In this document: one piece after another, positions 8,717 to 63,448 of the stretch
Position numbering within the stretch: position 1 is the stretch's first letter
How the letters are laid out: every line of letters begins with the position of its first letter
Assembly: GCF_006345805.1 (NCBI RefSeq)
Contig: NC_043007.1
Coordinates: 31,434,001 to 31,498,000 of the forward strand
Length of the DNA stretch: 64,000 nt
Direction: 5' to 3'
Origin: Octopus sinensis
Taxonomy: Eukaryota
The notes under the pieces: generated by a model
Seen by the model: the letters and a program-made list of their open reading frames with translations, nothing else
Database searches by the model: none
Told to the model about the DNA's origin: nothing
Position numbers and translations under genes: made by a program

Positions 8717-8751
8717 GTTAAACGTTTCGAGCAAAGCTCTTCTTCAGAAAC
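8717..8751 (-). ncRNA. Minimal type I hammerhead ribozyme motif in a ~200-bp Penelope-like non-autonomous element (8616-8812)
   Basis: The minus strand reads GTTT-CTGAAGA-A-GAGC-TTT-GCTC-GAAAC-GT-T-TAAC, with a canonical CUGANGA/GAAA core, 4-bp stem II and palindromic ACGT stem III. Confidence 0.65.
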
Positions 8752-14954: not shown

Positions 14955-15358
14955 GCTTGTTTCAGTTATTTGACTGCGGCCATACTGGGGCAGCGCCTTG
15001 AAGAATTCTTAGTAGATCGAATCGATCCTGGTATTTATCTTTTTTAAGTATAAGTTACGTGGATGTTAACACACCAACACCGGGTGGCGGACAAACACGG
15101 ACGCAAATACACACATACACATACATACGCACGCACACACGTACATACACACAGATATATACAACGGGATTCTTTCAGTTTCCGTCTACCAAAGAGGCGC
15201 AGGAGTGGCTGTGTGGTAAATAGCTTGCTTACCAGCCACATGGTTCCGGGTTCAGTCCCACTGCGTGGCACCTTGGGCAAGTGTCTTCTACTATAGCCTT
15301 GGACCAATCAAAGCCTTATGAGTGGATTTGGTAGACGGAAACTGAAAGAAGCCCGTCG

Positions 15359-15405
<47 letters not shown>

Positions 15406-15720
15406 ATGTTTGTGTGTCTATGTTCGTTCCCCCAACATTGCTTGATAACCGATGCTGGTGTGTTTACGTCCCAGTAACTTAGCGGTTCGGCAAGAGAGAT
15501 CGATAGAATAAACACTAGGATTACAAAGAATAAGTCCTGACGTCGATTTGCTTGACTAAAGGCGGTGCTCCAGCATGGCCGCAGTCAAATGACTGAAACA
15601 AATCAAAGAATAAAAGAATAAATCCACTCACAAGGGTTTGGTCGGCCCGAGCCTATCGTAGAAGACGCTTGCCCTAAGTGTCAACAGTGAGACACAACCC
15701 AGTACCATATGATTGGGGAG
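14955..15720 (-). mobile_element. Older SINE family A copy split by a nested insertion
   Basis: The sequence ..TTTCCGTCTACCAAA ends at 15193 and resumes as TCCACTCACAAGG at 15623. The two parts are contiguous in intact copies. Confidence 0.8.
15194..15622 (+). mobile_element. SINE family A, full length and young, nested
   Basis: Has a complete head, body, internal (TA)n(TG)n, 3' module and AAAGAATA tail. Confidence 0.92.
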
Positions 15721-24844: not shown

Positions 24845-27455
24845 CAAACCCATGCTACGTATGTGGAGGCCTACATTTCATGAAGGACTGTCCTTTCAAA
24901 ACGTGGAAATGTTACAGTTGGCAAAAAATAGGACACAAGAGCTCACATTGCAGAGCAAAGTTAGGAAGGTCGAACAGAAGAAAAAAATTCTAAAGTTTCC
25001 TCAACGGAAAGTAGAAACAACTCCAAAATGAGGAAATTTGTACATGTAAAAGAAAACAAAGTGAATACTAAATTACAACTGGATACAGGTAGTGACATCT
25101 CGATTATTGATCCCGACACATGGAAAATAGGAAACCTACGTTGAGAAAAACATCGCAAATTGCACGAGGCGTGACAGGTGAAAAACTACACTCGTAGGCA
25201 AAATGTGGAGCGATATGGCATTTCGTGGTAAAACATGTAGAGCAAAAGTTTTCGCGTTAAAAAATGCAACCAATCTGTTCGGCACGGACTGGATGGAGTT
25301 GTTTCACTTATTGGACCTCCCCATAAGTCTGTACTGTAAAAAAGTAAATGACTGTCCCACCAGTAAAATAGGTCATCGAATGAATTGAAGAAAAAAATTT
25401 AAAACTTGTTCCCTGAAGTACTGTCGGGTACATTAGGTCTCTGTACTAAGACTGAGACATGTTTTCAAATAAATGAAAACGTCGTACCTGTGTTCAAACC
25501 CAGTAGAAAGGTACCTTTTCCTGCAATAAAGCAGGTAGATGAAGAATTAAACAGATTAGAGAAAACTGAAATAATTCAAAAAGTGGATTATTCTAAATAG
25601 GTGGCACCAAATGTGTGTATTAAAAAAAAAAAGAATAACAAAATCAGGGTGTGTGCCGATTTTTCCACTGGTTAGGCAGTGATTTTTCTACTGGTTAAGG
25701 AGTGAATGTGTCTAAAAATGTACCACTATCCGCTACCATCTCCGGAGGATAGTTTTGCAAAATTAAACGGTAACAAGATATTTTCGAAACTGGATCTGTC
25801 TGATGCGAGCCTACAAATTAAAGCAGACGAGGAATGCTCGAAATTTCTAACAGTGAATACGCCCAAAGGACTTTATAAATATAACAGATTACCTTTCGGT
25901 CTAAAGGTCACACCTGCAATTTTTCAACAGGTTGTGGATGCGATGTTAGCAGACTGTAAATTCGCAATTCCATACCTAGATGATCTATTAATTAAAATTG
26001 AATCTGATGATCAGTATGTCGAGCATATAAAGAATGTTTTTGGAAAAATAAGAGTGAAGAGAAATGTGAATTTGTTTTGCCTAAAATTAAATATTTAGGA
26101 CAAATTATTGATAGAGATGGAAGACGACCTGACCCGTCGAGGGCAGACGCAATTAAAAATATGTTTCCTCCGGCTAATATAACGACCTTACAAGCTTTTC
26201 TGGGTCAAACGAATTATCAAAATTACATACTAAATATGTATAATTTGAGAATTCCACTAAATAATTTGTTATAAAAGGATGTGAAGTGGAATTAGTGAAA
26301 TTGTCAAAAGGCGTTTGACGATATAAAAAAAAAATACTAATATCGGATTTGCCGCTGGCTCATTTCGATCTTGCAGCGGATGTTGTTGTAGCTTCTGACG
26401 CTTCTGAATACGGCATAGGAGCAGTAATACTACACAAATATAAAGACAGTAATATGAAGGCGGTGGTTCATGCCTCACGTTCTCTGATAGCCGCAGAGAA
26501 AAACTATAGTCAAATAGAGAAATAAGCTCCTGCGATTATTTTTGCCGTGAAGAAATTTCACAGATTTTTGCACGGTAGAAGTTTTAGACTACAAACTGAT
26601 CACCGACCATTATTATCAATTTCTGGGTAGAAGGAAGGAATTACTACCCATGCTGCAAATAGATTGCAGTGCTGGGCTACAATATTGTTGAATTACGACT
26701 TTAAGATGGAGTACATTACTTCTAAGAAAATTGGCCATGCGGTCTGTTTATCTAGGCTAATTCCGAAGAATGCGGAATCGCTGAAAAATACGGTGATAGC
26801 CGCATCACAATCAGAAAAAGGAAATTAAAAACACTATGTGTAATGTCATTCAGAAGCTGTCAGTGAGTGTACAAGATATAAAAAGTAAATCAGCGAAGGA
26901 CAAATGCGTCATAAAATTGAAGAAAACATTGAAAAATAAACAAAAGAGAAACACAAATGCGAACCCTTTTTCACTCTGCGATGATGTATTGATGCTCGCA
27001 CAAAGAGTGGTAGTACCAACTGTACTATAGAAACGCATATTACATGAATTTCATAGTGGATACCCGGGGTGTCAAGAATGAAAGCCTTGGGGAGGAGTTA
27101 CGTGTTTTGGCCGACAATGGGCCGGAACATTGAAAATTTGGTGAGATCATGTAGAGGTTGTGCGCTAGCTGCCAAGACACCACTGGCAAAATAATAATCA
27201 TGGCCTGAGACTGATAGTCCATGGTCCAGCGTACATATAGAGTGCGCTGGACCAGTGAATGGCGTGTACTATTTGATCATTGTTGATAGTTTTACTAAGT
27301 GGCTGGAAGTATATAGGTGCAGTCAACCTCGAAGGCAACAATAAAGTTCATGCTCGAAATTTTTGCTTGATACGGTGTTCCGGACACCATAGTATTGGAC
27401 AATGGAACACAATTTACAGGATACGAGTTCAAAAAATTCTGCAAAACCAATCACA
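24845..27455 (+). pseudogene. pol: Ty3/Gypsy (Mag/K02A2.6-like) gag-pol pseudogene
   Basis: Domains appear in Gypsy order: CCHC knuckles (CYVCGGLHFMKDC, CYSWQKIGHKSSHC), protease LQLDTGSDISII, RT (FSKLDLSDA, RLPFGL, YLDDLLI), RNase H (VASDASEYGIGAV) and integrase (SPWSSVHIE, IIVDSFTKWLEV, DNGTQF). There are many stops and frameshifts. It is truncated in the integrase core and no LTRs were seen. Confidence 0.95.
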
Positions 27456-28210
27456 CAGGGGTGGGAAGCTGGCACCAAGAGGGGACCCCCACCCCCAAGA
27501 CATTCTACAACATTGGTTCCCTTCCGCTCCGATCACCTCAGAATTATAGTCTGCGAACTTGCCTGTCAACATCTTCGGTTTCGGCCGTACCCGGAAAGTC
27601 CCCTTCACCCCACCTTCTAGGCTATGATCCTGCAGCCGTCTTTAAATCGCTGACATGGACTTCAAAAGCCATCTACCCTCAGGATATACCCGGTGCTTGC
27701 AACCGGCTCCCCTTCAGTCAGCAAACTGCATTTTGTTTGCTTTTGGGATCAGATTGAAACCAAAAAGTTTAAGGTTCGCCTTTCGAGTAGGCATAAGATT
27801 CATATATTCCGCAGTGGCATACCTAGAGAGTGTGCCGCCTGCGGGAGCCCATGAGGCTGCCGATTCCATCTCCAGACCCTACCCCTACAAAAAAAAAATA
27901 ATAAATATGCCACGTTATTGTACAGTGGTCCAAAACCGCCGGCCCTCTCAAAAAGCATAGCCCAGGACTGACCGTTCCATTATTCTCCCACCTACACCAC
28001 TGATACTCCGAGCGTGTGCCCTTACATTTTGCTGTCCTGCGCCTTAATTTGCTTCTCTCTTCGACAGTCCCCACGCTTCTCTAGTCACTATTCCCTCCTT
28101 GTCGAAACAATTCTATGCTGCAGAAGTTGACCCCACTCCACTTCCGGTTTTTATTGGTCCCCTTGCTTCGGTGTAAGCTCTAGATGCTGGTAGCATTGAA
28201 GGTTAGTTGA
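27456..28210 (+). mobile_element. Possible decayed L1/Tx1-like ORF2 3' fragment abutting the Gypsy integrase
   Basis: There is an abrupt switch to C-rich sequence. Peptides such as PKTFYNI and KLTPLHFRF weakly resemble L1/Tx1 C-terminal regions. Confidence 0.3.
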
Positions 28211-29669: not shown

Positions 29670-30255
29670 TAAAGTAATATAAAGAATGGGATAAGAACGC
29701 AAAATATCCAGACAGATGATACAAAAAGAAAAGGGACGAGAAAAAAAAAGGATAGGTCATTCGGAGTTTTCTTTCGTCAGTCGAGTTCCAGATTATCTTT
29801 GCAATTTCGGCAGGTTATACTCGAGATTGCTCCAATTTGGCCAGCCCCAAGGAAAAACTAAGCTAAGAGCACTAGATTCCTTGGAAGAAAGCAGCGGATG
29901 CATACGAAAACAGGGACGGAAAAAATGGAGAAATGGTACACAAATACAAATGCAAATAACAGGACATTAACAACAGGTGTCTTTCGACTAAGGACAATTA
30001 AATTAAGCTGGCGTGTGTGAAAGTGAAGCATTACGGCTGGGACATAAGAGTGCAAGACGTCACTAACTGTGTAAACAGTATGAAGTACGAAAACAAACGA
30101 GTTAAATATGCAAACAACGAGAAAAAATGGAAAACAGGACAAGTAAAAGAGAACGACCCTTCATCTGTTGTCGGGTGTCTATCTACTCCTCTGAATGCTC
30201 GAAATTTGTTTTTGTACTTCGTACTGTTTACACAGTTAGTGACGTCCTGTACCCA
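29670..30255. mobile_element. Non-autonomous (TA)n-flanked repeat with a ~48-bp internal inverted repeat
   Basis: 30050-30098 is the imperfect reverse complement of 30205-30252. Part of it resembles 48530-48696 and 57675-57845. Confidence 0.6.
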
Positions 30256-30462
30256 TATATGCATATATATGTATATATATGTTAATATATATATATATAT
30301 ATTATATATATAATATAATATATATATATATATATATATAACAATTTAGGAGTGACCCTAACAGGTCATTCGTCCACCAGAAAGAGCAGCCATAACTCAC
30401 ACCGCCAAGTAGTAGTAATTCAGAAATTAGGTGAAATTTAAAAACATTTACCCTAATTCATC

Positions 30463-30558
30463 TTTAGACGTCAACGTTTCTGTGTCATTAATGATTAAAT
30501 TAGCTTAATTAAATTAAATTAAGGCCAATCTACCATAGGTTACACTTCATCAGTAAAA
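30463..30558 (-). ncRNA. Type I hammerhead ribozyme, inverted copy
   Basis: The minus strand reads TTTA-CTGATGA-A-GTGT..ACAC-A-GAAACG-TTGA-CGTC-TAAAG. Confidence 0.7.
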
Positions 30559-30823
30559 AACCTGGGAGAGACAATATACACGAGGCGTCTGTATCGATGC
30601 CTACGGAATATCTGTCTTAAAATTTTCAAGACTGACGTATTCGCGCCAAACTTATCAGCAGTAATATAAACTGCCGATTCAATCTCAGAATTCTGAGATT
30701 GAATCGGCATTTATATTTACTGCTGATAAGTTTGGCGCGAATACGTCAGTCTTGAAAATTTTAAGACAGATATTCCGTAGGCATCGATACAGACGCCTCG
30801 TGTATATTTGTCTCTCCCAGGTT

Positions 30824-30921
30824 TTTTACTGATGAAGTGTAACCTATGGTAGATTGGCTTAATTTAATTTAATTAAGCTAATTTAATCATTAATGACACA
30901 GAAACGTTGCAACGTCTAAAA
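30824..30921 (+). ncRNA. Type I hammerhead ribozyme, copy 1
   Basis: Stem I is TTTTA/TAAAA, CTGATGA starts at 30829, stem II is GTGT/ACAC with a 55-nt insert, and GAAAC starts at 30901. Stem III is the palindrome ACGTTGCAACGT, and the GUC cleavage triplet ends at 30916. Confidence 0.8.
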
Positions 30922-31293
30922 GATGAATTAGGGTAAATGTTTTTAAATTTTCACCTAATTTCTGAACTTACTACTACTTGGCGGTGTGAGTTATGGCTGC
31001 TCTTTCTGGTGGACGAATGACCTGTTAGGGTCACTCCTAAATTGTTATATTATATATTTTCGATGACATTTTCTCTTTTCCACCAGGCCGCTGGTAGCGA
31101 TAAATTTCTATTGAATTTTTTTGCTACCCTAAATTGACTAATTGATAATTTTCTGAATAATTCTGAGATTGAATCGGCAGTTTATATTTACTGCTGATAA
31201 GTTTGGCGCGAATACGTCAGTCTTGAAAATTTTAAGACAGATATCCGTAGGCATCGATACAGACGCCTCGTGTATATTTGTCTCTCCCAGGTT

Positions 31294-31391
31294 TTTTACT
31301 GATGAAGTGTAACCTATGGTAGATTGGCTTAATTTAATTTAATTAAGCTAATTTAATCATTAATGACACAGAAACGTTGCAACGTCTAAAA
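31294..31391 (+). ncRNA. Type I hammerhead ribozyme, copy 2
   Basis: Identical motif 470 bp downstream of copy 1, with predicted cleavage after 31386. Confidence 0.8.
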
Positions 31392-31642
31392 GATGAATTA
31401 GGGTAAATGTTTTTAAATTTTCACCTAATTTCTGAATTACTACTACTTGGCGGTGTGAGTTATGGCTGCTCTTATCTGGTTGACGAATGACCTGTTAGGG
31501 TCACTCCTAAATTGTTATATTTATATATTTAGTCGATGACTATTTTCTCTTTTCCATCAGGCCGCTGGTAGCGATACTTTTCTATTGAATTTTTTTGCTA
31601 CCCTAAATTGACTAATTGAATATATATATATATATATATATA

Positions 31643-31800
31643 AGGGAAATTTTTACGAAAATAAACAAAAGACGAAGACAGGTGGTGTACAAACAAACAA
31701 ATGTATTAGTATAGCGCTCAGGAATAGAAAAAGTCTTTTACGTTCGAGCCTACGCTCTTCCACAGAAAGATACACAGAAAAAAAAACAAGGAGAGAAACA
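31643..31800 (-). mobile_element. ~200-bp Penelope-like non-autonomous element with minimal hammerhead motif (CTGTGGA core)
   Basis: The minus strand reads TCTTT-CTGTGGA-A-GAGC-GTAG-GCTC-GAAC-GT-A-AAAGA, with one core A missing. It sits in (TA)n. Confidence 0.7.
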
Positions 31801-33135: not shown

Positions 33136-33235
33136 NNNNNNNNNNNNNNNNNNNNNNNNNNNNNNNNNNNNNNNNNNNNNNNNNNNNNNNNNNNNNNNNN
33201 NNNNNNNNNNNNNNNNNNNNNNNNNNNNNNNNNNN
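33136..33235. other. Assembly gap (100 N)
   Basis: A run of N interrupts a SINE head. Confidence 1.
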
Positions 33236-33838
33236 ATATATTATATTATATATATATATATAATACTATATATATAATATATATAATATATATATATATA
33301 TTGTTGACGTCATAAGATTTCAGAAACTTTCGAGAAATAAAATTCTTTAGGATCGTTGAATCTTGAAACAAATTAAGATATAAGTTACAACGTTGTTAAA
33401 TATTGGTGTTAAAAACCCTTGGATAGAAAAAGTCGGATGCTGTCCGTGGCACACGAACTCAAGTCCTGTAAACATAACAGGCGTTCTACCGATGGACCAA
33501 AGCAACAAAACAAATTTTTCTATCCAACTTAAAAACCTTATTCTTCCCAATAGTTACATACTTTTATCTATAGCTTTATTTGCTTCGAGATACACCGTTC
33601 CGAAAAAGAGTTATACCACGTTCTCGAAAGCTTATACATTCTTATGGCGTCAACAACATAATTCTCGCTGGTAAAAATAAACTTTACAAAATACGTACAG
33701 AAATTAGATAGAACCAACAAACAACATTTTTTGCTCTCTTTATAGAATGCAACGCTATTAAACTATCAAACGATATCAAAGATATACTCTATCATGTGTG
33801 TGTGTGTGTGTGTTGTTTGTGGTATATAATATATATAT

Positions 33839-34997: not shown

Positions 34998-35475
34998 TGT
35001 ATGTATGTATGTGTATATATATATATATATTTGTATGTATATATATGTATGTATGTATGTATATGTGTATGTACATATATATATATATATACATGCACAA
35101 CATTTATATCAATCTTACTGCAATTGACTGATAAACTATGGAACAGTAGCCAAGACATAATAATCTGTTATTGATATAATGGATTATTACGTTGTATTAA
35201 GTGCAATTTCAAAAGAAATTACGTATTTCATGGTTCTTCTGTCAGTTTCTAACAATCTTGTAATTGGTTAAGTTATCCATGGAAATTCCATTGGTTTAGT
35301 GCTTGTTTGTCTGTTTGTTTGTGTGTGTGTGTGTGTGTACGTAAGTGTATGTATACGTACATTTAAGCTCGTATATCATTACATGTATGTGTGTGAATAT
35401 ATATATATGTGTGTGTGTGTGTATATATATATATACACACACACATACACATATATATAATATATATATAATATA

Positions 35476-35509
<34 letters not shown>

Positions 35510-35510
<1 letters not shown>

Positions 35511-35893
35511 GGCGTAGGAGTGGGTGTGTGGTAAGTAGCTTGCTTACCAACCACATGGTTTCCGGGTTCAGTCCCACATGTAGTTCAGTCCCACTGCGTG
35601 GAACCTTGGGCAAATGTCTTCTACTAAAGCCTCGGGTTAACCAAAGCCTTGTGAGTGGATTTGGTATACGGAAACTGAAAGAAGCCCATAGTATATATAT
35701 ATATATAGATATATAAATATGTATGTATGTATGTGTGTGTGTGTGTGTTTATATATTTGTGTGTCTGTGTTTGCCCCCACCCCCACAATCGCTTGACAAC
35801 CGATGCTGGTGTGTTTACGTCCCCGTAACGTAGCGGTTCGGCGAGACCGATAGAATAAGTACTTTGATTACAAAGAATAAGTTCTGGGGTTGA
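35510..35893 (+). mobile_element. SINE family A, 3'-truncated, B-box region duplicated
   Basis: Family A head and body are present, and GTTCAGTCCCAC occurs twice. Confidence 0.88.
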
Positions 35894-38793: not shown

Positions 38794-39185
38794 AGTGGCT
38801 GTGTGGTAAGTAGCTTGTTTACCAACCACATGGTTCCACATGGTTCCACATGGCACCTTGGGCAACCATCTTCTACTATAGCTTCGGGCCGACCAATGCC
38901 TTGTGAGTGGATTTGGTAGACGGAAACTGAAAGAAGCCCGTCGTATATATATAATATATGTGTGTGTATGTGTATGTTTTTGTGTCTGTGTTTGTCCCCC
39001 CACAACATCGCTTGACAACCGATGCTGGTGTGTTTACGTCCCCGTCAGCTAGCGGTTATTAGAGAGAACGATAGAATAAGTACTAGGCTTACAAGGAATA
39101 AGTCCCGGGATCGATTTGCTCGACTAAAGGTGGTGCTCCAGCATGGCCGCAGTCAAATTGACTGAAACAAATTGAAGAAAAGAAA
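38794..39185 (+). mobile_element. SINE family A
   Basis: Head has a CATGGTTCCA duplication replacing the B box; body, microsatellite and 3' module follow. Confidence 0.88.
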
Positions 39186-39289
39186 ATACTGTAGTCAGGT
39201 TTCTTAGAAACGGGTAGCACGTGCTCCCCTTTTAGAAAACAGTTCCCCGTGTACGTGTGAACCCGTCGTCCCCTGCTCGTTTCCAGCCT

Positions 39290-44623: not shown

Positions 44624-44830
44624 ACGGGAAGCTTTATGAAAATAGACATAAGACGAAGGCAGGTTTACGGAAATAAACAAATGACGAAGGCAGGTGGAAT
44701 ACAAACAAACAATTGTATTAGTATGGCGCTCAGGAAATATAAATAAAACAAGTCTTTAACGTTTCGAGCCTACGCTCTTCAACAGAAAGATACACAGAGA
44801 AGAAACACAGAAAGAAAGAGAGAGAAAAAA
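44624..44830 (-). mobile_element. ~200-bp Penelope-like element with minimal hammerhead motif (CTGTTGA core, 44752-44790)
   Basis: The minus strand reads TCTTT-CTGTTGA-A-GAGC-GTAG-GCTC-GAAAC-GT-T-AAAGA. (TA)n flanks it. Confidence 0.75.
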
Positions 44831-45044: not shown

Positions 45045-45443
45045 CTCTTTTACTCTTTTACTCTTTTACTTGTTTCAGTCATTTGACTGCGGCCATGCTG
45101 GAGCACCGCCTTTTTTTTTAGTCGAGCAAATCGACCCCGGGACTTATTCTTTGTAAGCCCAGTACTTATTCTATCGGTCTCTTTTGCCGAACCGCTAAGT
45201 GACGGGGACGTAAACACACCAGCATCGATTGTCAAGCAATGCTAGGGGGACAAACACATACACACACATACATATATACGACAGGCTTCTTTCAGTTTCC
45301 GTCTACCAAATCCACTCACAAGGCATTGGTCGGCCCGGGGCTATAGCAGAAGACACTTGCCCAAGATGCCACGCAGTAGGACTGAACCCGGAACCATGTG
45401 GTTGGTTAGCAAGTTACTTACCACACAGCCACTCCTGCGCCTA
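45045..45443 (-). mobile_element. SINE family A, full length
   Basis: Complete reverse-complement copy with a (AAAAGAGT)n tail. Confidence 0.92.
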
Positions 45444-48906: not shown

Positions 48907-48943
48907 CTTTCTGTTGAAGAGCGTAGGCTCGAAACGTAAAAGA
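48907..48943 (+). ncRNA. Minimal hammerhead motif (CTGTTGA core) in ~170-bp element 48870-49035
   Basis: CTTT-CTGTTGA-A-GAGC-GTAG-GCTC-GAAAC-GT-A-AAAG. Confidence 0.65.
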
Positions 48944-49034: not shown

Positions 49035-49112
<78 letters not shown>

Positions 49113-49153
49113 CTCCTACACGCATTTTTTCTCTCCTTGTTTCTTTTCTGTGT

Positions 49154-49193
49154 GTCTTTCTGTCGAAGAGCGTAGGCTCGAAACGTAAAAGAC
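49154..49193 (+). ncRNA. Minimal hammerhead motif (CTGTCGA core) in element 49110-49290; duplicate at ~51086-51125
   Basis: GTCTTT-CTGTCGA-A-GAGC-GTAG-GCTC-GAAAC-GT-A-AAAGAC, with a 6-bp stem I. Confidence 0.7.
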
Positions 49194-49962
49194 TTGTTCT
49201 ATTTATATTCCTGAGCGCCATACTAATACATTTGTTTGTTTGTACTCCACCTGCCTTCGTCTTTTGTTTATTTTCGTAAACCTTCCCGTTATATATATAT
49301 ATACATACATACATACATACATATATATATTACCGATACCTCATATTTCGTACCTTGAGTTCTACTACTGCAGGGAATTCTTGGGAAAGCATCCAATGCA
49401 GTGGTTTGAAAACTGAGCGACACCTGTCTTTCTTTAACCCCATTCCCAAAACTTAGGGATAACTTCCCCCCCTCCCGTCTTTACTAATCCTTTACGTTTT
49501 ATGTTTTACTTTTATGTTCCCTGTATAATTCCTCTTCCTCTTCTTACGGTATTGGACGAATTAAAAAAATACGTCTAAAACCATCTAATTTTATTAAACA
49601 TGGAAGTTTGTACCCTTTTCAATCCTCACAGACTTCTCGCTCCTTCGAGAACATTATCCTAACCTTTATTCACTTGGCCAATGCTCATTGATTAGTTATC
49701 CATTAAATCAAGTGTTATCCGATAATACCATGTCCCATATATATAGTCGCCATGATAGATCGGTAGCCACTACACACATTTTTTTCTCTCTCCTTTTTTT
49801 CTCTCTCCTTGTTTTTTTCTGTAGAAGAGCGTAGGATCGAAACGTAAAAGACTTTTTCAATTCCTGAGCGTTATACTATACATGTTTGTTTGTACAACCA
49901 CCTGTCTTCGTCGCTTGTTTTTTTTTTTTTTCGTGAACTCTCCCTATATATATATATATATA

Positions 49963-49999
<37 letters not shown>

Positions 50000-50512
50000 T
50001 ATCTTATTTTAAAACTGCTGAATCTTGATATAAGCTTCGTTACTTTGTCTCTCTCCACCAGGCAAAGAAAACGATATCTTATAGACATCGTTATATTCGT
50101 GACACGCGCGTTTATAGTAACGCGCTTACGATGGTTTTTTTTCTTCTTTTCTCCATGGCTGCCGCAGTGAAAATGTACCCACGCGTTTACTTATTTATAG
50201 ATAAACAGCGTTAAGTGATTTCTTCTTCTTCTTGGGTCAGAGGAGCAATGTCAGTAACCGGAGACGCACTCTTTGTGTCGTTTGCCTGTTCTTATATTTC
50301 TTATTTTTATTTAGTGTCATGTTGCACCATTGACATACACCAAGATCAACACCTGGTTTACTATGACTTATAGTAAAATGTTACTTAATGTTGCGATTCA
50401 AAAAGTCTATTTATATTATTATACCTGCAATGAGAAACATCTTAGCAATAATGACAATTCTTGCTAAGAAAGGCAACGGAGACAACTCCGAAATTTAAAC
50501 TGAATAAAGAAG

Positions 50513-50675
50513 TGCGGGTGTGGTTGTGTGGTGAGAGGTTTGCTTCCCATACACGTGGCGTCGGGTTCAGTCCCATTGTGTGGCACCATCGGCAAGTGTC
50601 TTCTACAATAGCACCGGGCTGAACTCACCTTGTGAGTGGATTTGGTAGACGGAAACTAAAAGAAGCCCGTCGTAT
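50513..50675 (+). mobile_element. SINE family A 5' half (duplicate at 52456-52618)
   Basis: Family A head through AAGAAGCCCGTCGTA. Confidence 0.8.
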
Positions 50676-51872
50676 AATAGAGCCAGAACACTAAGACAAT
50701 TTTTTGCCTGAACAAACGAAACATGTATTGATATTTCCCTTTAAAATCTTGGGATATTGCAAACCATATTTGTAATATCCTATGGATGGGAAATACAGCA
50801 ACAAAAACATGTGCTTTGTGGAAACGTACGTAGCAATGTATTAAAGGATTTATGAATTTCCAAACAAAAGTTCTTGCTATTACTGGAATCATCCTACGCC
50901 ACGGTGGCACCAGACCAATAACCTTCTCATAAAATTGCTGTGGAAGACGGGAATAAGCGGTGGCCGGAATAAGTAGCATAGCTTTTTATGAGCGCACTCA
51001 AAAACGTTTCACATATACGAACTGAAAGGATATATATATATTAGCTCCTACACGCATTTTTTCTCTCCTTGTTTCTTTTCTGTGTGTCTTTCTGTCGAAG
51101 AGCGTAGGCTCGAAACGTAAAAGACTTGTTCTATTTATATTCCTGAGCGCCATACTAATACATTTGTTTGTTTGTACTCCACCTGCCTTCGTCTTTTGTT
51201 TATTTTCGTAAACCTTCCCGTTATATATATATATACATACATACATACATACATATATATATTACCGATACCTCATATTTCGTACTTGAGTTCTACTACT
51301 GCAGGGAATTCTTGGGAAAGCATCCAATGCAGTGGTTTGAAAACTGAGCGACACCTGTCTTTCTTTAACCCCATTCCCAAAACTTAGGGATAACTTCCCC
51401 CCCTCCCGTCTTTACTAATCCTTTACGTTTTATGTTTTACTTTTATGTTCCCTGTATAATTCCTCTTCCTCTTCTTACGGTATTGGACGAATTAAAAAAA
51501 TACGTCTAAAACCATCTAATTTTATTAAACATGGAAGTTTGTACCCTTTTCAATCCTCACAGACTTCTCGCTCCTTCGAGAAACATTATCCTAACCTTTA
51601 TTCACTTGGCCAATGCTCATTGATTAGTTTATCCATTAAATCAAGTGTTATCCGATAATACCATGTCCCATATATATAGTCGCCATGATAGATCGGTAGC
51701 CACTACACACATTTTTTTCTCTCTCCTTTTTTTCTCTCCTTGTTTTTTTCTGTAGAAGAGCGTAGGATCGAAACGTAAAAGACTTTTTCAATTCCTGAGC
51801 GTTATACTAATACATGTTTGTTTGTACACCACCTGTCTTCGTCGCTTGTTTTTTTTTTTTTTCGTGAACTCT

Positions 51873-51945
<73 letters not shown>

Positions 51946-52987
51946 TCTTATTTTAAAACTGCTGAATCTTGATATAAGCTTCGTTACTTTGTCTCTCTCC
52001 ACCAGGCAAAGAAAACGATATCTTATAGACATCGTTATATTCGTGACACGCGCGTTTATAGTAACGCGCTTACGATGGTTTTTTTTTCTTTTCTCCATGG
52101 CTGCCGCAGTGAAAATGTACCCACGCGTTTACTTATTATAGATAAACAGCGTTAAGTGATTTCTTCTTCTTCTTGGGTCAGAGGAGCAATGTCAGTAACC
52201 GGAGACGCACTCTTTGTGTCGTTTGCCTGTTCTTATATTTCTTATTTTTATTTAGTGTCATGTTGCACCATTGACATACACCAAGATCAACACCTGGTTT
52301 ACTATGACTTATAGTAAAATGTTACTTAATGTTGCGATTCAAAAAGTCTATTTATATTATTATACCTGCAATGAGAAACATATCTTAGCAATAATGACAA
52401 TTCTTGCTAAGAAAGGCAACGGAGACAACTCCGAAATTTAAACTGAATAAAGAAGTGCGGGTGTGGTTGTGTGGTGAGAGGTTTGCTTCCCATACACGTG
52501 GCGTCGGGTTCAGTCCCATTGTGTGGCACCATCGGCAAGTGTCTTCTACAATAGCACCGGGCTGAACTCACCTTGTGAGTGGATTTGGTAGACGGAAACT
52601 AAAAGAAGCCCGTCGTATAATAGAGCCAGAACACTAAGACAATTTTTTGCCTGAACAAACGAAACATGTATTGATATTTCCCTTTAAAATCTTGGGATAT
52701 TGCAAACCATATTTGTAATATCCTATGGATGGGAAATACAGCAACAAAAACATGTGCTTTGTGGAAACGTACGTAGCAATGTATTAAAGGATTTATGAAT
52801 TTCCAAACAAAAGTTCTTGCTATTACTGGAATCATCCTACGCCACGGTGGCACCAGACCAATAACCTTCTCATAAAATTGCTGTGGAAGACGGGAATAAG
52901 CGGTGGCCGGAATAAGTAGCATAGCTTTTTATGAGCGCACTCAAAAACGTTTCACATATACGAACTGAAAGGATATATATATATATA

Positions 52988-53190
52988 GTTAATCCAAACA
53001 AGAAAACAAAAACCAAAAAACAACAACGCAAGGACGTGGAACAAATAAAGTATTATTGGACGCTCAGGAAAGAAGGGAAGAAGGAGGGTTTAACGTTTCG
53101 AGCGGAGCTCTTCGTCGGAAACATAGGAGAAGGAAAGATCCTGAGAAGGGAAGACAGAGGAAAAAAATCGCTAGTGATACAGACGAGGTC
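52988..53190 (-). mobile_element. ~200-bp Penelope-like element with hammerhead motif (53088-53122)
   Basis: The minus strand reads GTTT-CCGACGA-A-GAGC-TCC-GCTC-GAAAC-GT-T-AAAC. It is homologous to 8616-8812 and has (TA)n flanks. Confidence 0.7.
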
Positions 53191-60235: not shown

Positions 60236-61822
60236 TCACTCTTAATTTTTCGTTCTTTCTGTCTCTTTCTTCTCTGCCGTTCTTTACTCGTCTCTTATTT
60301 ATTTATTTATTCATTTTTTTTTTCTGTCGCCAAAAATTTCTTTCCTCCATCTTTCCCCTTGCTTGCTTTTGTAGTCTTTTGAATGAAATTAGAATGAAAC
60401 AGGTTGAACGAAAGAAGGAAGGTGGAAGGGGGATGGATGTAATGGGTGGGTGGGTGGGGGGTTGACTTTACATGAAAGAAACCTGGATGGGATATAAAGA
60501 TAGGAAAATGCTTTAATATCTGCGAACAGAGGGAAGCTTAGCAGCAGAGGAAGAAAAAAGCAGACAGACAGACAGAGGGAATGAGAGAGAGTGAAAGAGA
60601 GAGGGAGAGAGACAGAGGGAGAAGTAGATTAAATAAAGTGAGGAAAGGAAGATAGATAGATAGATAGACAAAAAGAGAATCGGAGAATGGTGGGGGGGGG
60701 GAGACGGCGTAGAAGAGCGGTATGAGTCACCTGTGAAGTATGCTAAGGCGTTTCAGTCAACGTGACTTCTACGTTCGAAAGCAGCCAAAATGGAGAAGCG
60801 AATTTTTCAACAGGATCGATCGTTCTCTCTCTCTCTCTCTCCCTCACTTACTGCCTCTCTTTCTCTTTCTATCTCTCTCTCTCCCTCACTCACTGCCTCT
60901 CTTTCTCTTTCTTTTTCTATTTCTCTCTCTCTCCCTCACTTACTTCTTCTCTTACTCTTTCTTTTTCTATCTCTCTCTCTCTCCCTCACTTACTTCTTCT
61001 CTTTCTCTTTCTTTTTTTTTCTCTCTCTCTCTCTCCCTCACTTATTTCCACTCTTACTCTTTCTCTTTCTCTCTCTATATCTCTCTCTGTCTCTCTTCTC
61101 ATCTTGCTTTCAGCTGGGGGAAAAAAAAAAAAGAAACGAAATCTCGTCCAGATGAAGACCTGTATGAGCTGTAGACATGTAGAGAGAGAGTTCGGAGGCA
61201 GGAGAGCAGCGGAAGGAATCAATGAATAAAAGAAAGCAGTCGATGGGGGTGGCGGGGATGGAGCAAGATTATAAATAACGAACGAGACGTACATGTACAA
61301 ACGCTTGTGCGCGCGCACACACACACACACGGAGGCGTGCGCGCGAGGAAGAGAGAGCGAGAGTGAGAGAGAGAGAGAGAGAGAGAATTATCTGTCTGAA
61401 TCCCTTCGACGACTTAAAATATGAGAGAATATAATACCATGTGATATTGTATGGTGCAAGCTAACATCGTAGTGTTGTGGGAAATGTGAAGTTTACTACG
61501 CCCTGATTTGATGCAGTTCCCGTCACACGACAGCCAACATGGGTTCGGTTTCAGCTCGCTGTGTCGAAGAATTCGTGTTGGTTGCAAAAAAAAAAAAAGT
61601 TGTCATTTGTATGTAAAATGGTAAATAGTAGCAGTTGAAGAATGTCTTCGATCAATTTCGAGTGGAAGGAAGCAAGCCACAGCAATTACTGCTACAGTGA
61701 CCTGATATCGTTTTAGTTGCAAGCGATTGGAAGACAGGTGTTTAGAACAGACAGCTGAAAGAACGAACGCTGTGAATGAACGAAAGAAGCACCAACGGTG
61801 ACGGTCATGACTGGATTGGGTT

Positions 61823-62272
61823 CTTTTACTTACTTGTTTCAGTCATTTGACTGCAGCCATGCTGGAGCACCGCCTTTAGTCGAGCAACTCGATCCCGGGA
61901 CTTATTCTTTGGAAGCCTAGTACTTATTCTATCGGTCTCTTTTTGCCGAACCGCTAAGTGACGGGGACGTAAACACACCAGCATCGGTTGTCAAGCAATG
62001 CTAGGGGAACAAACACAGACGCACAAACACACACATACATATATATATATTATACTTTGATACTTTGATAGGTTTCGGCCATTATTGGCCCAGGCCATGT
62101 CTAACTTAATAGCACCACCTGGCTTCTTTCAGTTTCCCTCTACCAAATCCACTCACAAGGCATTGGTCGGCCCGGGGCTATAGCAGAAGACACTTGCCCA
62201 AGATGCCACGCAGTGGGACTGAACCCGGAACCATGTGGTTGGTTAGCAAGCTACTTACCACACAGCCACTCC
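61823..62272 (-). mobile_element. SINE family A, full length, with ~70-bp insert in its microsatellite linker
   Basis: Reverse-complement copy; unrelated sequence lies at about 62052-62120. Confidence 0.9.
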
Positions 62273-63448
62273 TTCTCTTATAAAATATCGGTAATGTTGT
62301 TGTTGTTGCTCCTAACTCTTTGCAGTGTTGTCGCTGCCGTTAGTTCTAAAACAGAAAAAGAGAACGAAAAGGAAATAAATGGTTTTGAGAAACGGTGATT
62401 CTTACAACTCTTACGTGATGTTGACTGGATGGACAGAAAACATGAAGTTCACGTGCCAACGAAGAACTAAATCTCTACCCGGTCGCACGAATTGCTAGTA
62501 ATAGCAGCCAACTCTCCACCCCTCGATTCATATTCTATATTACAGGCTTACATTGGATAGACTGTCTTTGTAAAATGACAGGATAACACAGGATGGAACG
62601 CCTTTGATCAGAGGTCTGTTCGATTAGGGTTGAACTGGGGTTAAACAATTAAAGGACTACAGCGACAACGGAAGGGGCCGTTTAAAGAAGGATTTATGCT
62701 GAAAGAGCAACGCATAGAACGTTCGCTTGTGTCTTTGATTTGTTTCAGGCGTTGGGCTGCGGCCATACTGGGGCAACGCCTTGACAGGTCTTAGTCAAAT
62801 GAATTAACCCCGGGACTCGTATATCTTTTAAAAAAAAAACTGGTACTTACTCTATTGGACCCTTATCCCGAACTGTTAAGTTACGGGGACGTAAACAAAC
62901 CAACACTGGTTATCAAATGGGGAGGGGCACAAAGGCAGATACACGCGCGTGCACACACACGTGCACACACACGTGCACACACGCACATATACATGCGTAT
63001 ACATATATGTATATATATGTATATATATACATACATGCATACACACACACACGCACATGCTCACACACACACACACACACACATGCACACACACACACAC
63101 ATACACACACACATACACACACATATCGTTTTTTTATTAGGTTTGCAAGGTTCTTTATGTGAATTCGGGTGGTGAAGCATATTTTGTTGTGTCTGGGGAG
63201 AGTCATCCTGTTTTGATGCCTTATTAATCAACACACTCACCGGTTCGATTTCCACTCATTTATTTTTCATTGCTTCTTGCAACCTCTTCAATAGCTGTCA
63301 TATATATATATATATATTTATATATGAGAGGTATTGGTATCCAGAAGACCCAAGACGGTAGGTAAGTCTATGTAAGTTCTACGAGAGGGCCTTAGTTAGA
63401 CTCTCTACGAGTGAGGAGTCTAATGTGGGTCTTGTGTGTGCATGTCTA

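What the first reader, a model, noticed from the sequence alone, without database searches (positions are those of the whole stretch)
30340..31619. Tandem plus inverted 470-bp hammerhead-ribozyme repeat: candidate cephalopod retrozyme or circular-RNA element
Seen in sequence: a non-coding 470-bp unit occurs as two direct copies preceded by an inverted partial copy, inserted in (TA)n. Each copy has all type I hammerhead elements in order: stem I TTTTA/TAAAA, CUGAUGA, stem II, GAAA, stem III and GUC. The predicted cleavage sites at 30916 and 31386 would release an exact 470-nt monomer. Established: metazoan retrozymes are tandem hammerhead-bearing repeats processed to circular RNAs, and Penelope-like elements (PLEs) carry hammerheads in direct or inverted pLTRs. 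Inference: this is a non-autonomous ribozyme-processed retroelement, possibly mobilised by a PLE reverse transcriptase. The divergent arrangement gives ribozymes on both strands.
Basis: partly seen in the sequence, partly recalled or inferred. Interest (0 to 1): 0.85.

Follow-up and report, generated by a model that had tools for sequence, protein, structure and literature searches.

The report
Hammerhead retrozyme with Penelope insertion footprint
A 470-base non-coding repeat with a complete hammerhead ribozyme motif lies here as two head-to-tail copies plus a mirror-image partial copy between TA microsatellites; it is likely a protein-free jumping element ('retrozyme') copied by a Penelope-type retrotransposon, a known kind of element, and its predicted self-cutting and circular RNA are untested.

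Summary
Observation confirmed. An inverted 351-bp arm (30340-30690) and two direct copies 470 bp apart (30691-31619) lie between (TA)n tracts. Each has a type I hammerhead motif (0 of 20,000 shuffles match). Public contigs under three organism labels hold the unit in many variants, with head-to-tail joints, a recurring end followed by (AT)n, and compensatory changes in stem III and other hairpins. So it is a real, structured, multi-copy family. The layout (partial tandem, inverted 5'-truncated copy, tail at one end, TA target) is the published insertion footprint of Penelope-like elements (PLEs). The 'ribozymes on both strands' are a by-product of that inversion: the monomer's minus strand has none. 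The hammerhead is atypical: an A·A mismatch at the base of stem II, a 55-nt loop II and a palindromic 4-bp stem III. It is closest in style to Hydra-clade PLE hammerheads, and Rfam misses it. No ORF, helper element, expression, cleavage or circular RNA was shown. Verdict: new member of the animal non-LTR retrozymes (non-autonomous PLE derivatives). No cephalopod example was found in the papers searched; the host identity rests on recall.

The parts
30255..30339 (.). Left (TA)n tract, insertion target; a target-site duplication cannot be read in it
30340..30690 (-). Inverted 5'-truncated copy (351 bp); its far end matches unit position 31046-31050, the family's recurring end
   Evidence: the same end followed by (AT)n in one contig of run X3 (table 7)
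30462..30559 (-). Hammerhead motif of the inverted copy (core 30553, predicted cleavage after 30467); loop III 2 nt shorter, stem I 1 nt shorter
30689..30692 (.). Fold-back centre: a 4-base palindrome shared by the two arms, head-to-head
   Evidence: (I1, 0 nt between arms)
30691..31160 (+). Direct copy 1, one full 470-bp permutation of the unit; non-coding
   Evidence: all 30 bins covered in 4 of 4 runs laid
30823..30922 (+). Type I hammerhead 1: stem I 30823-28/30917-22, CUGAUGA 30829-35, A·A at 30836/30900, stem II 30837-40/30896-99 with distal hairpin 30846-30890, GAAA 30901-04, palindromic stem III 30904-30915, predicted cleavage after C30916
   Evidence: compensatory stem III variants
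30917..31386 (+). Predicted 470-nt monomer between the two cleavage sites; 34.5% GC; about 65% paired when folded as a circle
   Evidence: release and circularisation are inferred
31015..31036 (+). Hairpin just upstream of the recurring end; its pairs covary in the family
   Evidence: (tables 3, 7)
31161..31619 (+). Direct copy 2 (459 bp)
31293..31392 (+). Type I hammerhead 2, identical to hammerhead 1; predicted cleavage after C31386
31517..31619 (+). About 100-bp extension beyond the end used by the inverted arm: candidate PLE 'tail'
   Evidence: the tail reading is inferred
31620..31641 (.). Right (TA)n tract; also the 3' anchor of an older minus-strand minimal-hammerhead element (31642-31800)

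Best explanation
The locus is one recent insertion of a multi-copy, non-coding 470-bp repeat family with a covarying type I hammerhead motif, likely a non-LTR retrozyme copied in trans by the reverse transcriptase and GIY-YIG endonuclease of a Penelope-like element. Shown: the layout, the motif, the family, its head-to-tail joint, its TA-anchored ends and its structure-keeping variation. Inferred steps: (1) tandem copies are transcribed; (2) the hammerheads cut, probably helped by dimer pairing of the palindromic stem III, releasing a 470-nt RNA that would be ligated into a circle as in mussel and coral retrozymes (about even odds); (3) the PLE protein nicks a (TA)n tract and primes reverse transcription inside the RNA, at the position matching 31619 and not at the cleavage site; (4) it copies about two units (929 nt) from a more-than-unit template, a circle or an uncut tandem transcript; (5) the cDNA folds back at the 4-base palindrome at 30689-30692 and copies itself for 351 nt to the second end (31046-31050), leaving an inverted arm and a ~100-bp tail. 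The likeliest helper is a TA-targeting clade (Hydra, else Neptune).
For: Family: 20 of 24 listed runs hold the unit or part of it (16 hold half or more of its words), 9 studies, 3 organism labels; 1393, 77, 436 and 21 contigs laid in the 4 runs. Head-to-tail joints 31156/31160 to 30691/30710 in runs X1 and X7, 2 of 4 (table 5c). The share of contigs running on into unlike sequence is 0, 0.03, 0 and 0.21. Ends in TA: unit position 31050 followed by (AT)n (X3); 30870 and 31011 preceded by (TA)n (X7, X9), one contig each. Covariation: T30907A with A30912T keeps a stem III pair in 3 of 4 runs (same depth, one contig in X3). One X9 contig has a stem III palindrome with two swapped pairs. G30856A and a variant 3' arm keep the stem II hairpin. 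The 31015-31036 hairpin has A-U to G-C and mismatch-to-pair variants (pair table). Only 1 of 13 core positions varies, in minor contigs. Fold: z -5.3 linear, -6.1 circular. The active fold costs +0.9 kcal/mol in a 231-nt context and +4.4 in the circle; stem III self-duplex -17.9 against hairpin -0.9. Layout matches the published PLE pattern (Craig 2021; Arkhipova 2013). Internal priming, AT-rich cutting and the tail are shown in vitro for a lizard PLE. 15 of 25 Hydra-clade families list a mismatch at the base of stem II, nearly all insert in (TA)n, and one is from Octopus bimaculoides (counted by eye). Retrozyme-PLE link.
Against: No helper ORF was found and the genome is not held. No Rfam hammerhead match. 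The A·A at the base of stem II is not among the 25 Hydra families (their mismatches are T·T or T·C), their loop II is 3-10 nt against 55 here, and metazoan PLE hammerheads conserve G10.1-C11.1. Cleavage is often absent in such motifs: 8 of 9 Xenopus retrozyme dimers did not cut in vitro, and the lizard PLE hammerhead needs protein and is dispensable for insertion. The unit-wide structure test is weak: 7 of 34 variant sites break a pair against 12.2 +/- 2.2 expected (P 0.017). The sites are linked, and one 'compensated' pair (30971/30986) looks unlinked in X3; counting it as broken gives 9, not significant by the same mean and SD (my arithmetic). In X1 the two stem III variants differ in depth (33,343 and 81,244). 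63 loose ends were not shown and contigs are short, so a link to an ORF could be missed. 470 nt exceeds the 150-450 bp of Cervera 2020, though within the 51-972 bp of Li 2026.
Confidence: 0.72

Rival explanations
1. The unit is the terminal repeat (pseudo-LTR), or an internally deleted stump, of an autonomous PLE. The locus is a routine truncated insertion, and no independent retrozyme family exists.
For: The layout is the one drawn for autonomous PLEs. Most PLE insertions are 5'-truncated. At least 9 truncated minimal-hammerhead ends of another family lie in this window. Contigs are too short to exclude an ORF-bearing parent.
Against: Contigs cover the whole unit and close it head-to-tail in 2 of 4 runs; almost none run on into unlike sequence in the DNA-type runs. 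The 45-codon frame has no Pfam hit and no hit among 1.84 billion proteins. Four 9-12-base motifs (one also as reverse complement) gave no meaningful match in the Craig 2021 consensus files.
Confidence: 0.13
2. The family is PLE-mobilised, but its hammerhead is a non-cutting or barely cutting structural element. The template is always an uncut linear tandem transcript, and no circular RNA is made. (This overlaps the best explanation except for step 2.)
For: A·A at the base of stem II, A-U-only stem I, no Rfam match. The insertion ends lie 130-134 and 229 nt downstream of the cleavage site, not at it. Uncut RNA is the main substrate of the lizard PLE. 8 of 9 frog dimers were inactive.
Against: Core nearly invariant and stem III covaries. 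A mismatch at the base of stem II is listed in 15 of 25 Hydra families and in an axolotl retrozyme family. A mussel retrozyme lacking the usual tertiary contacts cuts and gives abundant circles.
Confidence: 0.3
3. The dimer and mirror arm at this locus are an assembly or chimeric-read artefact, or a local duplication of a single dispersed copy.
For: The copies differ mainly by 1-2-base indels typical of long-read error. The window has a 100-N gap and another 98.7%-identical 1.9-kb tandem duplication. The fold-back joint was not seen in the 4 runs laid (table 5).
Against: The mirror symmetry stops at the family's recurring end rather than running on along the read. The head-to-tail joint exists in other data. 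The direct copies differ by 4 substitutions, one of them a common family variant. An older inverted hammerhead-like pair with the same layout lies at 33295-33670.
Confidence: 0.07

Closest known systems
Animal non-LTR retrozymes (Cervera and de la Pena 2020, PMC7229834; Li, Clavereau and Pollet 2026, 10.64898/2026.07.22.740005)
   Same: Non-coding head-to-tail repeat, a type I hammerhead in each unit, GC under 45%, highly self-paired monomer, dispersed multi-copy family, proposed PLE dependence.
   Different: 470 bp (above the 150-450 bp of the 2020 paper), 55-nt loop II with a 19-bp hairpin, A·A at the base of stem II, 4-bp stem III, inverted arm and tail at the insertion; RNA not shown; no cephalopod case in the passages searched.
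Endonuclease-bearing Penelope-like element insertions (Craig 2021, PMC8557442; Arkhipova 2013, PMC3846280; Frangieh 2024, PMC11167929)
   Same: Partial tandem, adjacent inverted 5'-truncated copy, palindrome at the head-to-head junction, extension at one end only, AT-rich target, hammerhead near the 3' end.
   Different: No RT or GIY-YIG ORF; the tail is about 100 bp against 30-40 bp described.
Hydra-clade PLE hammerheads (Craig 2021, File S2), including Hydra-1_Obim of Octopus bimaculoides
   Same: Mismatch at the base of stem II (15 of 25 families), 3-4-bp stem III, (TA)n target, cleavage site close to the 3' end; one family has an attached inverted 5'-truncated copy.
   Different: The mismatch is A·A, not T·T or T·C; loop II is far longer; no sequence likeness to the Hydra-1_Obim 3' end by eye or by short exact motifs.
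Minimal hammerheads of metazoan PLE pseudo-LTRs (Cervera and de la Pena 2014, PMC4209133)
   Same: Extra base after A9, short stem I, palindromic stem III, opposite-strand pairs 100-700 bp apart.
   Different: Not minimal: stem III can form in a monomer; G10.1-C11.1 is not adjacent to the core.

Membership tests
Type I hammerhead ribozyme | Core CUGANGA, GAAA, UH in order, with three helices and stem I open | tested here: met
   0 of 20,000 shuffles
Type I hammerhead ribozyme | Purine-pyrimidine pair (usually G10.1-C11.1) at the base of stem II | tested here: not met
   A30836·A30900, or in a second register two extra bases plus U-A; mismatches here are listed for Hydra-clade hammerheads
Type I hammerhead ribozyme | Covariation in the helices | tested here: met
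   Stem III and the stem II distal hairpin; no substitution listed in stem I, so it is uninformative
Type I hammerhead ribozyme | Match to an Rfam hammerhead model | tested here: not met
   the window's minimal hammerheads are also missed at gathering score
Type I hammerhead ribozyme | Self-cleavage | not testable with these tools
   Needs an in vitro assay
Non-LTR retrozyme | Tandem units, each with a type I hammerhead (at least two) | tested here: met
   head-to-tail joints in 2 of 4 runs; definition
Non-LTR retrozyme | Non-coding, low GC, a few hundred bases, highly self-paired | tested here: met
   Longest stop-free frame 66 codons; GC 34.5%, 65% paired
Non-LTR retrozyme | Multi-copy dispersed family | tested here: met
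   (many variants, different TA-anchored ends); the copy number itself was not measurable
Non-LTR retrozyme | Expressed as circular RNA | not testable with these tools
   Only contigs were offered; they cannot show ends, strand or level of an RNA
PLE-type insertion | Partial tandem, inverted 5'-truncated copy, tail at one end, AT-rich target | tested here: met
   the tail is longer than described
Autonomous Penelope-like element | ORF with RT and GIY-YIG endonuclease | tested here: not met
   None in the insertion
Hydra-clade dependent element | Terminal sequence shared with an autonomous Hydra PLE of the same genome | tested here: inconclusive
   No genome held; no likeness to the one published octopus Hydra consensus
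Viroid-like ambisense circular RNA | Ribozyme on both polarities of the monomer | tested here: not met
   1 hit on plus, 0 on minus of the unit

The most novel reading that the evidence does not exclude
An active cephalopod retrozyme whose large, covarying, long-armed hammerhead makes an abundant 470-nt circular RNA that a Hydra-clade PLE reverse-transcribes round the circle. The locus would be a frozen record of two turns of rolling reverse transcription carrying the PLE inversion and tail, tying retrozyme circles directly to PLE enzymes. Each such insertion would also plant a 350-bp perfect hairpin in an animal known for heavy RNA editing (recalled).
Probability: 0.3. Interest if true: 0.65.

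Novelty: new member of a known kind. Interest (0 to 1): 0.42.

Why it matters
That PLE enzymes move animal retrozymes is proposed from shared motifs, co-occurrence and sequence likeness. This locus shows a retrozyme-type unit carrying the mechanistic footprint of a PLE insertion, with ends away from the cleavage site. That makes the template question (circle or uncut tandem RNA) directly testable. The hammerhead is a natural variant that Rfam misses, so descriptor- and model-based counts may overlook the family. It does not amount to a new kind of system.

Tried and rejected
No whole genome is held, so no copy count or ORF linkage search was possible. Sequencing runs: no RNA holder listed; X9 is only guessed to be RNA, so it is not used as evidence of expression; summed contig depth is no copy number. 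Exact 21-base pattern scans: metagenomes 0 and 1 match, viral 0, prokaryote genomes 0; the one match, L001, is chance with no further likeness. Idea that 30692-30826 is a remnant of a GIY-YIG C-terminus: no Pfam hit, 0 hits in 1.84 billion proteins, and the frame depends on a base that copy 1 lacks but nearly all contigs have (table 4); dropped. Rfam: only chance hairpin hits, none at gathering score. A relaxed core scan gave mostly noise; a tight pattern replaced it. Lunse et al. 2017 on PLE hammerhead variants is not held and was not read. A search on core insertions gave one listing, not read. Ambisense viroid-like reading rejected. A target-site duplication cannot be read in (TA)n. Earlier-finding look-ups by sequence, words and place were empty.

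Full report
Observation. The insertion spans 30340-31619 between TA tracts. It has an inverted arm (30340-30690) joined without spacer to direct copy 1 (30691-31160), followed by direct copy 2 (31161-31619); the spacing is 470. The unit occurs nowhere else in the window. The inverted arm differs from copy 1 by 0 substitutions and 8 small indels (one search counts 9 because my slice ran 2 bases long). The direct copies differ by 4 substitutions and 7 indels. The insertion is therefore young, and the assembly probably carries read errors: three single-base differences of copy 1 or the region around them disagree with nearly all public contigs (table 4).

The hammerhead. A descriptor scan of both strands of the window finds three type I motifs, one per copy. 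None of 20,000 shuffles of the unit gave a hit; the descriptor was written after seeing the motif. Stem I has 5 A-U pairs and a G·U. Stem III is a 12-base palindrome: 4 pairs plus a tetraloop as a monomer (-0.9 kcal/mol), or 12 pairs between two copies (-17.9). Stem II starts with A·A, then 4 pairs, then a 55-nt loop holding a 19-bp hairpin. The active fold costs 0.9 kcal/mol in a 231-nt context and 4.4 in the circular unit; a second register costs 10. Rfam has no hammerhead match. The minus strand of the unit has no motif.

The family. 20 of 24 listed runs hold the unit or part of it, from 9 studies and 3 coded organisms; all are contigs, and none is on record as RNA. I laid 4 of the 24: 1393, 77, 436 and 21 contigs, all 30 bins covered in each. 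Head-to-tail joints occur in X1 and X7. One X3 contig ends at 31050 followed by (AT)n, the end used by the inverted arm. One contig each in X7 and X9 starts after (TA)n at other places. The fold-back joint was not seen, as expected if it is made per insertion, but that also leaves it unconfirmed. 63 loose ends and 1916 pieces were not shown.

Selection on structure. Of 34 listed substitution sites, one lies in the 13 core positions (U4 to C, minor). T30907A and A30912T swap a stem III pair in 3 of 4 runs. They have equal depth in a single X3 contig, though unequal depth in X1. One X9 contig has a different stem III palindrome with two swapped pairs. G30856A and a variant 3' arm keep the long hairpin of stem II, and the hairpin at 31015-31036 has three pair-keeping states (loose ends read by eye). 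Unit-wide, 7 of 34 sites break a predicted pair against 12.2 +/- 2.2 at random (P 0.017). This is weak: the sites are linked, and the 30971/30986 pair that I counted as compensated looks unlinked in X3. The monomer folds far better than shuffles on both strands (z -5.3 and -5.1).

No coding part. The longest stop-free frame is 66 codons. A 45-codon frame that looked like an endonuclease end found nothing in Pfam or among 1.84 billion proteins.

Mechanism. Craig et al. 2021 (PMC8557442; passages, section 11, supplement parts 2, 52, 53) describe PLE insertions as partial tandems with an adjacent inverted 5'-truncated copy and a 30-40-bp tail at one end. Arkhipova et al. 2013 (PMC3846280; passages) describe palindromes at the head-to-head junction and propose self-priming. 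Frangieh et al. 2024 (PMC11167929; parts 1-2 of 4) show AT-rich cutting, reverse transcription starting inside the RNA at two sites that define the tail, and insertion that does not need hammerhead cleavage. This locus fits that pattern: its two ends lie 130-134 and 229 nt downstream of the cleavage site, and the direct part crosses the cleavage site twice. The template was therefore longer than one cut monomer: a circle or an uncut tandem transcript. DNA cannot tell which. I put the circle at about even odds, by analogy with the mussel retrozyme (PMC7229834; passages and section 14). Against it stand the lizard result and the 8 of 9 inactive frog dimers (Li et al. 2026; parts 1-3 of 5; its supplements are closed and may bear on size range and species).

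Both strands. The minus-strand hammerhead is the inverted copy's own. Opposite-strand pairs 100-700 bp apart were noted in 2014 (PMC4209133; parts 1-2 of 4). In a transcript across the locus the inverted arm is predicted to pair with 97 of 100 nt of hammerhead 1, which would block release of the monomer from such a read-through RNA.

Helper. Unknown. In File S2 of Craig 2021, 15 of 25 Hydra families have a mismatch at the base of stem II (counted by eye; T·T or T·C, none A·A). They have 3-4-bp stem III and short loop II, nearly all insert in (TA)n, and one is from Octopus bimaculoides. I saw no sequence likeness to its 3' end. An O. vulgaris annotation lists 31 recently active Penelope-like families and has no occurrence of 'hammerhead' or 'ribozyme' in its main text (PMC13282606; passages). 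That the host is an octopus rests on my recall of its SINE and microsatellite landscape, not on a call. The window has at least 9 older minimal-hammerhead ends of another family, each 98-135 nt upstream of a TA tract, so TA-targeting PLE activity is commonplace here.

Novelty. Searches showed no paper describing a cephalopod retrozyme. I read passages of some listed papers only (also PMC6765202; PMC5786205). The library lacks most subscription papers, Lunse 2017 was not held, and Repbase and Dfam were not available. Earlier AI notes on other genomes report similar PLE-type hammerhead insertions; they are unchecked and not used as support. Verdict: a real, correctly spotted element; a new member of the non-LTR retrozyme kind with an unusual hammerhead; interest 0.42.

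Noticed in passing
window 8722-8742(-), 31741-31760(-), 44759-44780(-), 48916-48937(+), 49165-49186(+), 49824-49845(+), 51097-51118(+), 51755-51776(+), 53093-53113(-): A second family of short elements with a minimal hammerhead (mostly decayed cores), each 98-135 nt upstream of a (TA)n-anchored end: 8 exact pattern matches, 0 expected, plus the degenerate copy next to the finding. Likely truncated PLE ends.
   Followed up: partly
window 33295-33670: Older TA-flanked element with two inverted, decayed hammerhead-like arms: the same head-to-head layout as the finding.
   Followed up: partly
window 29670-30258: Left neighbour: element with a 54-bp inverted repeat (30044-30097 / 30205-30258) and a degenerate hammerhead-like core at 29758-29780(-).
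   Followed up: no
window 49098-52984: Tandem duplication of about 1.94 kb, 98.7% identical: recent duplication or assembly artefact.
   Followed up: no
window 25706-26098 and 27371-27757: Broken LTR-type retrotransposon remains: RVT_1 match E 3e-17 and a weak integrase match E 0.015.
   Followed up: partly
window 33136-33235: 100-N assembly gap.
   Followed up: no
window 30691-30853 in run X3; many positions: Two linked subfamilies of the unit at similar depth (14.1 and 12.7), differing at about 12 sites; one X9 contig skips 31051-31116.
   Followed up: partly
window 15195-15622, 35416-35888, 38794-39188, 45049-45442, 61808-62273 and others: Many copies of 400-bp dispersed repeats that I recall as octopus tRNA-derived SINEs; the label is recalled, not tested.
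   Followed up: no
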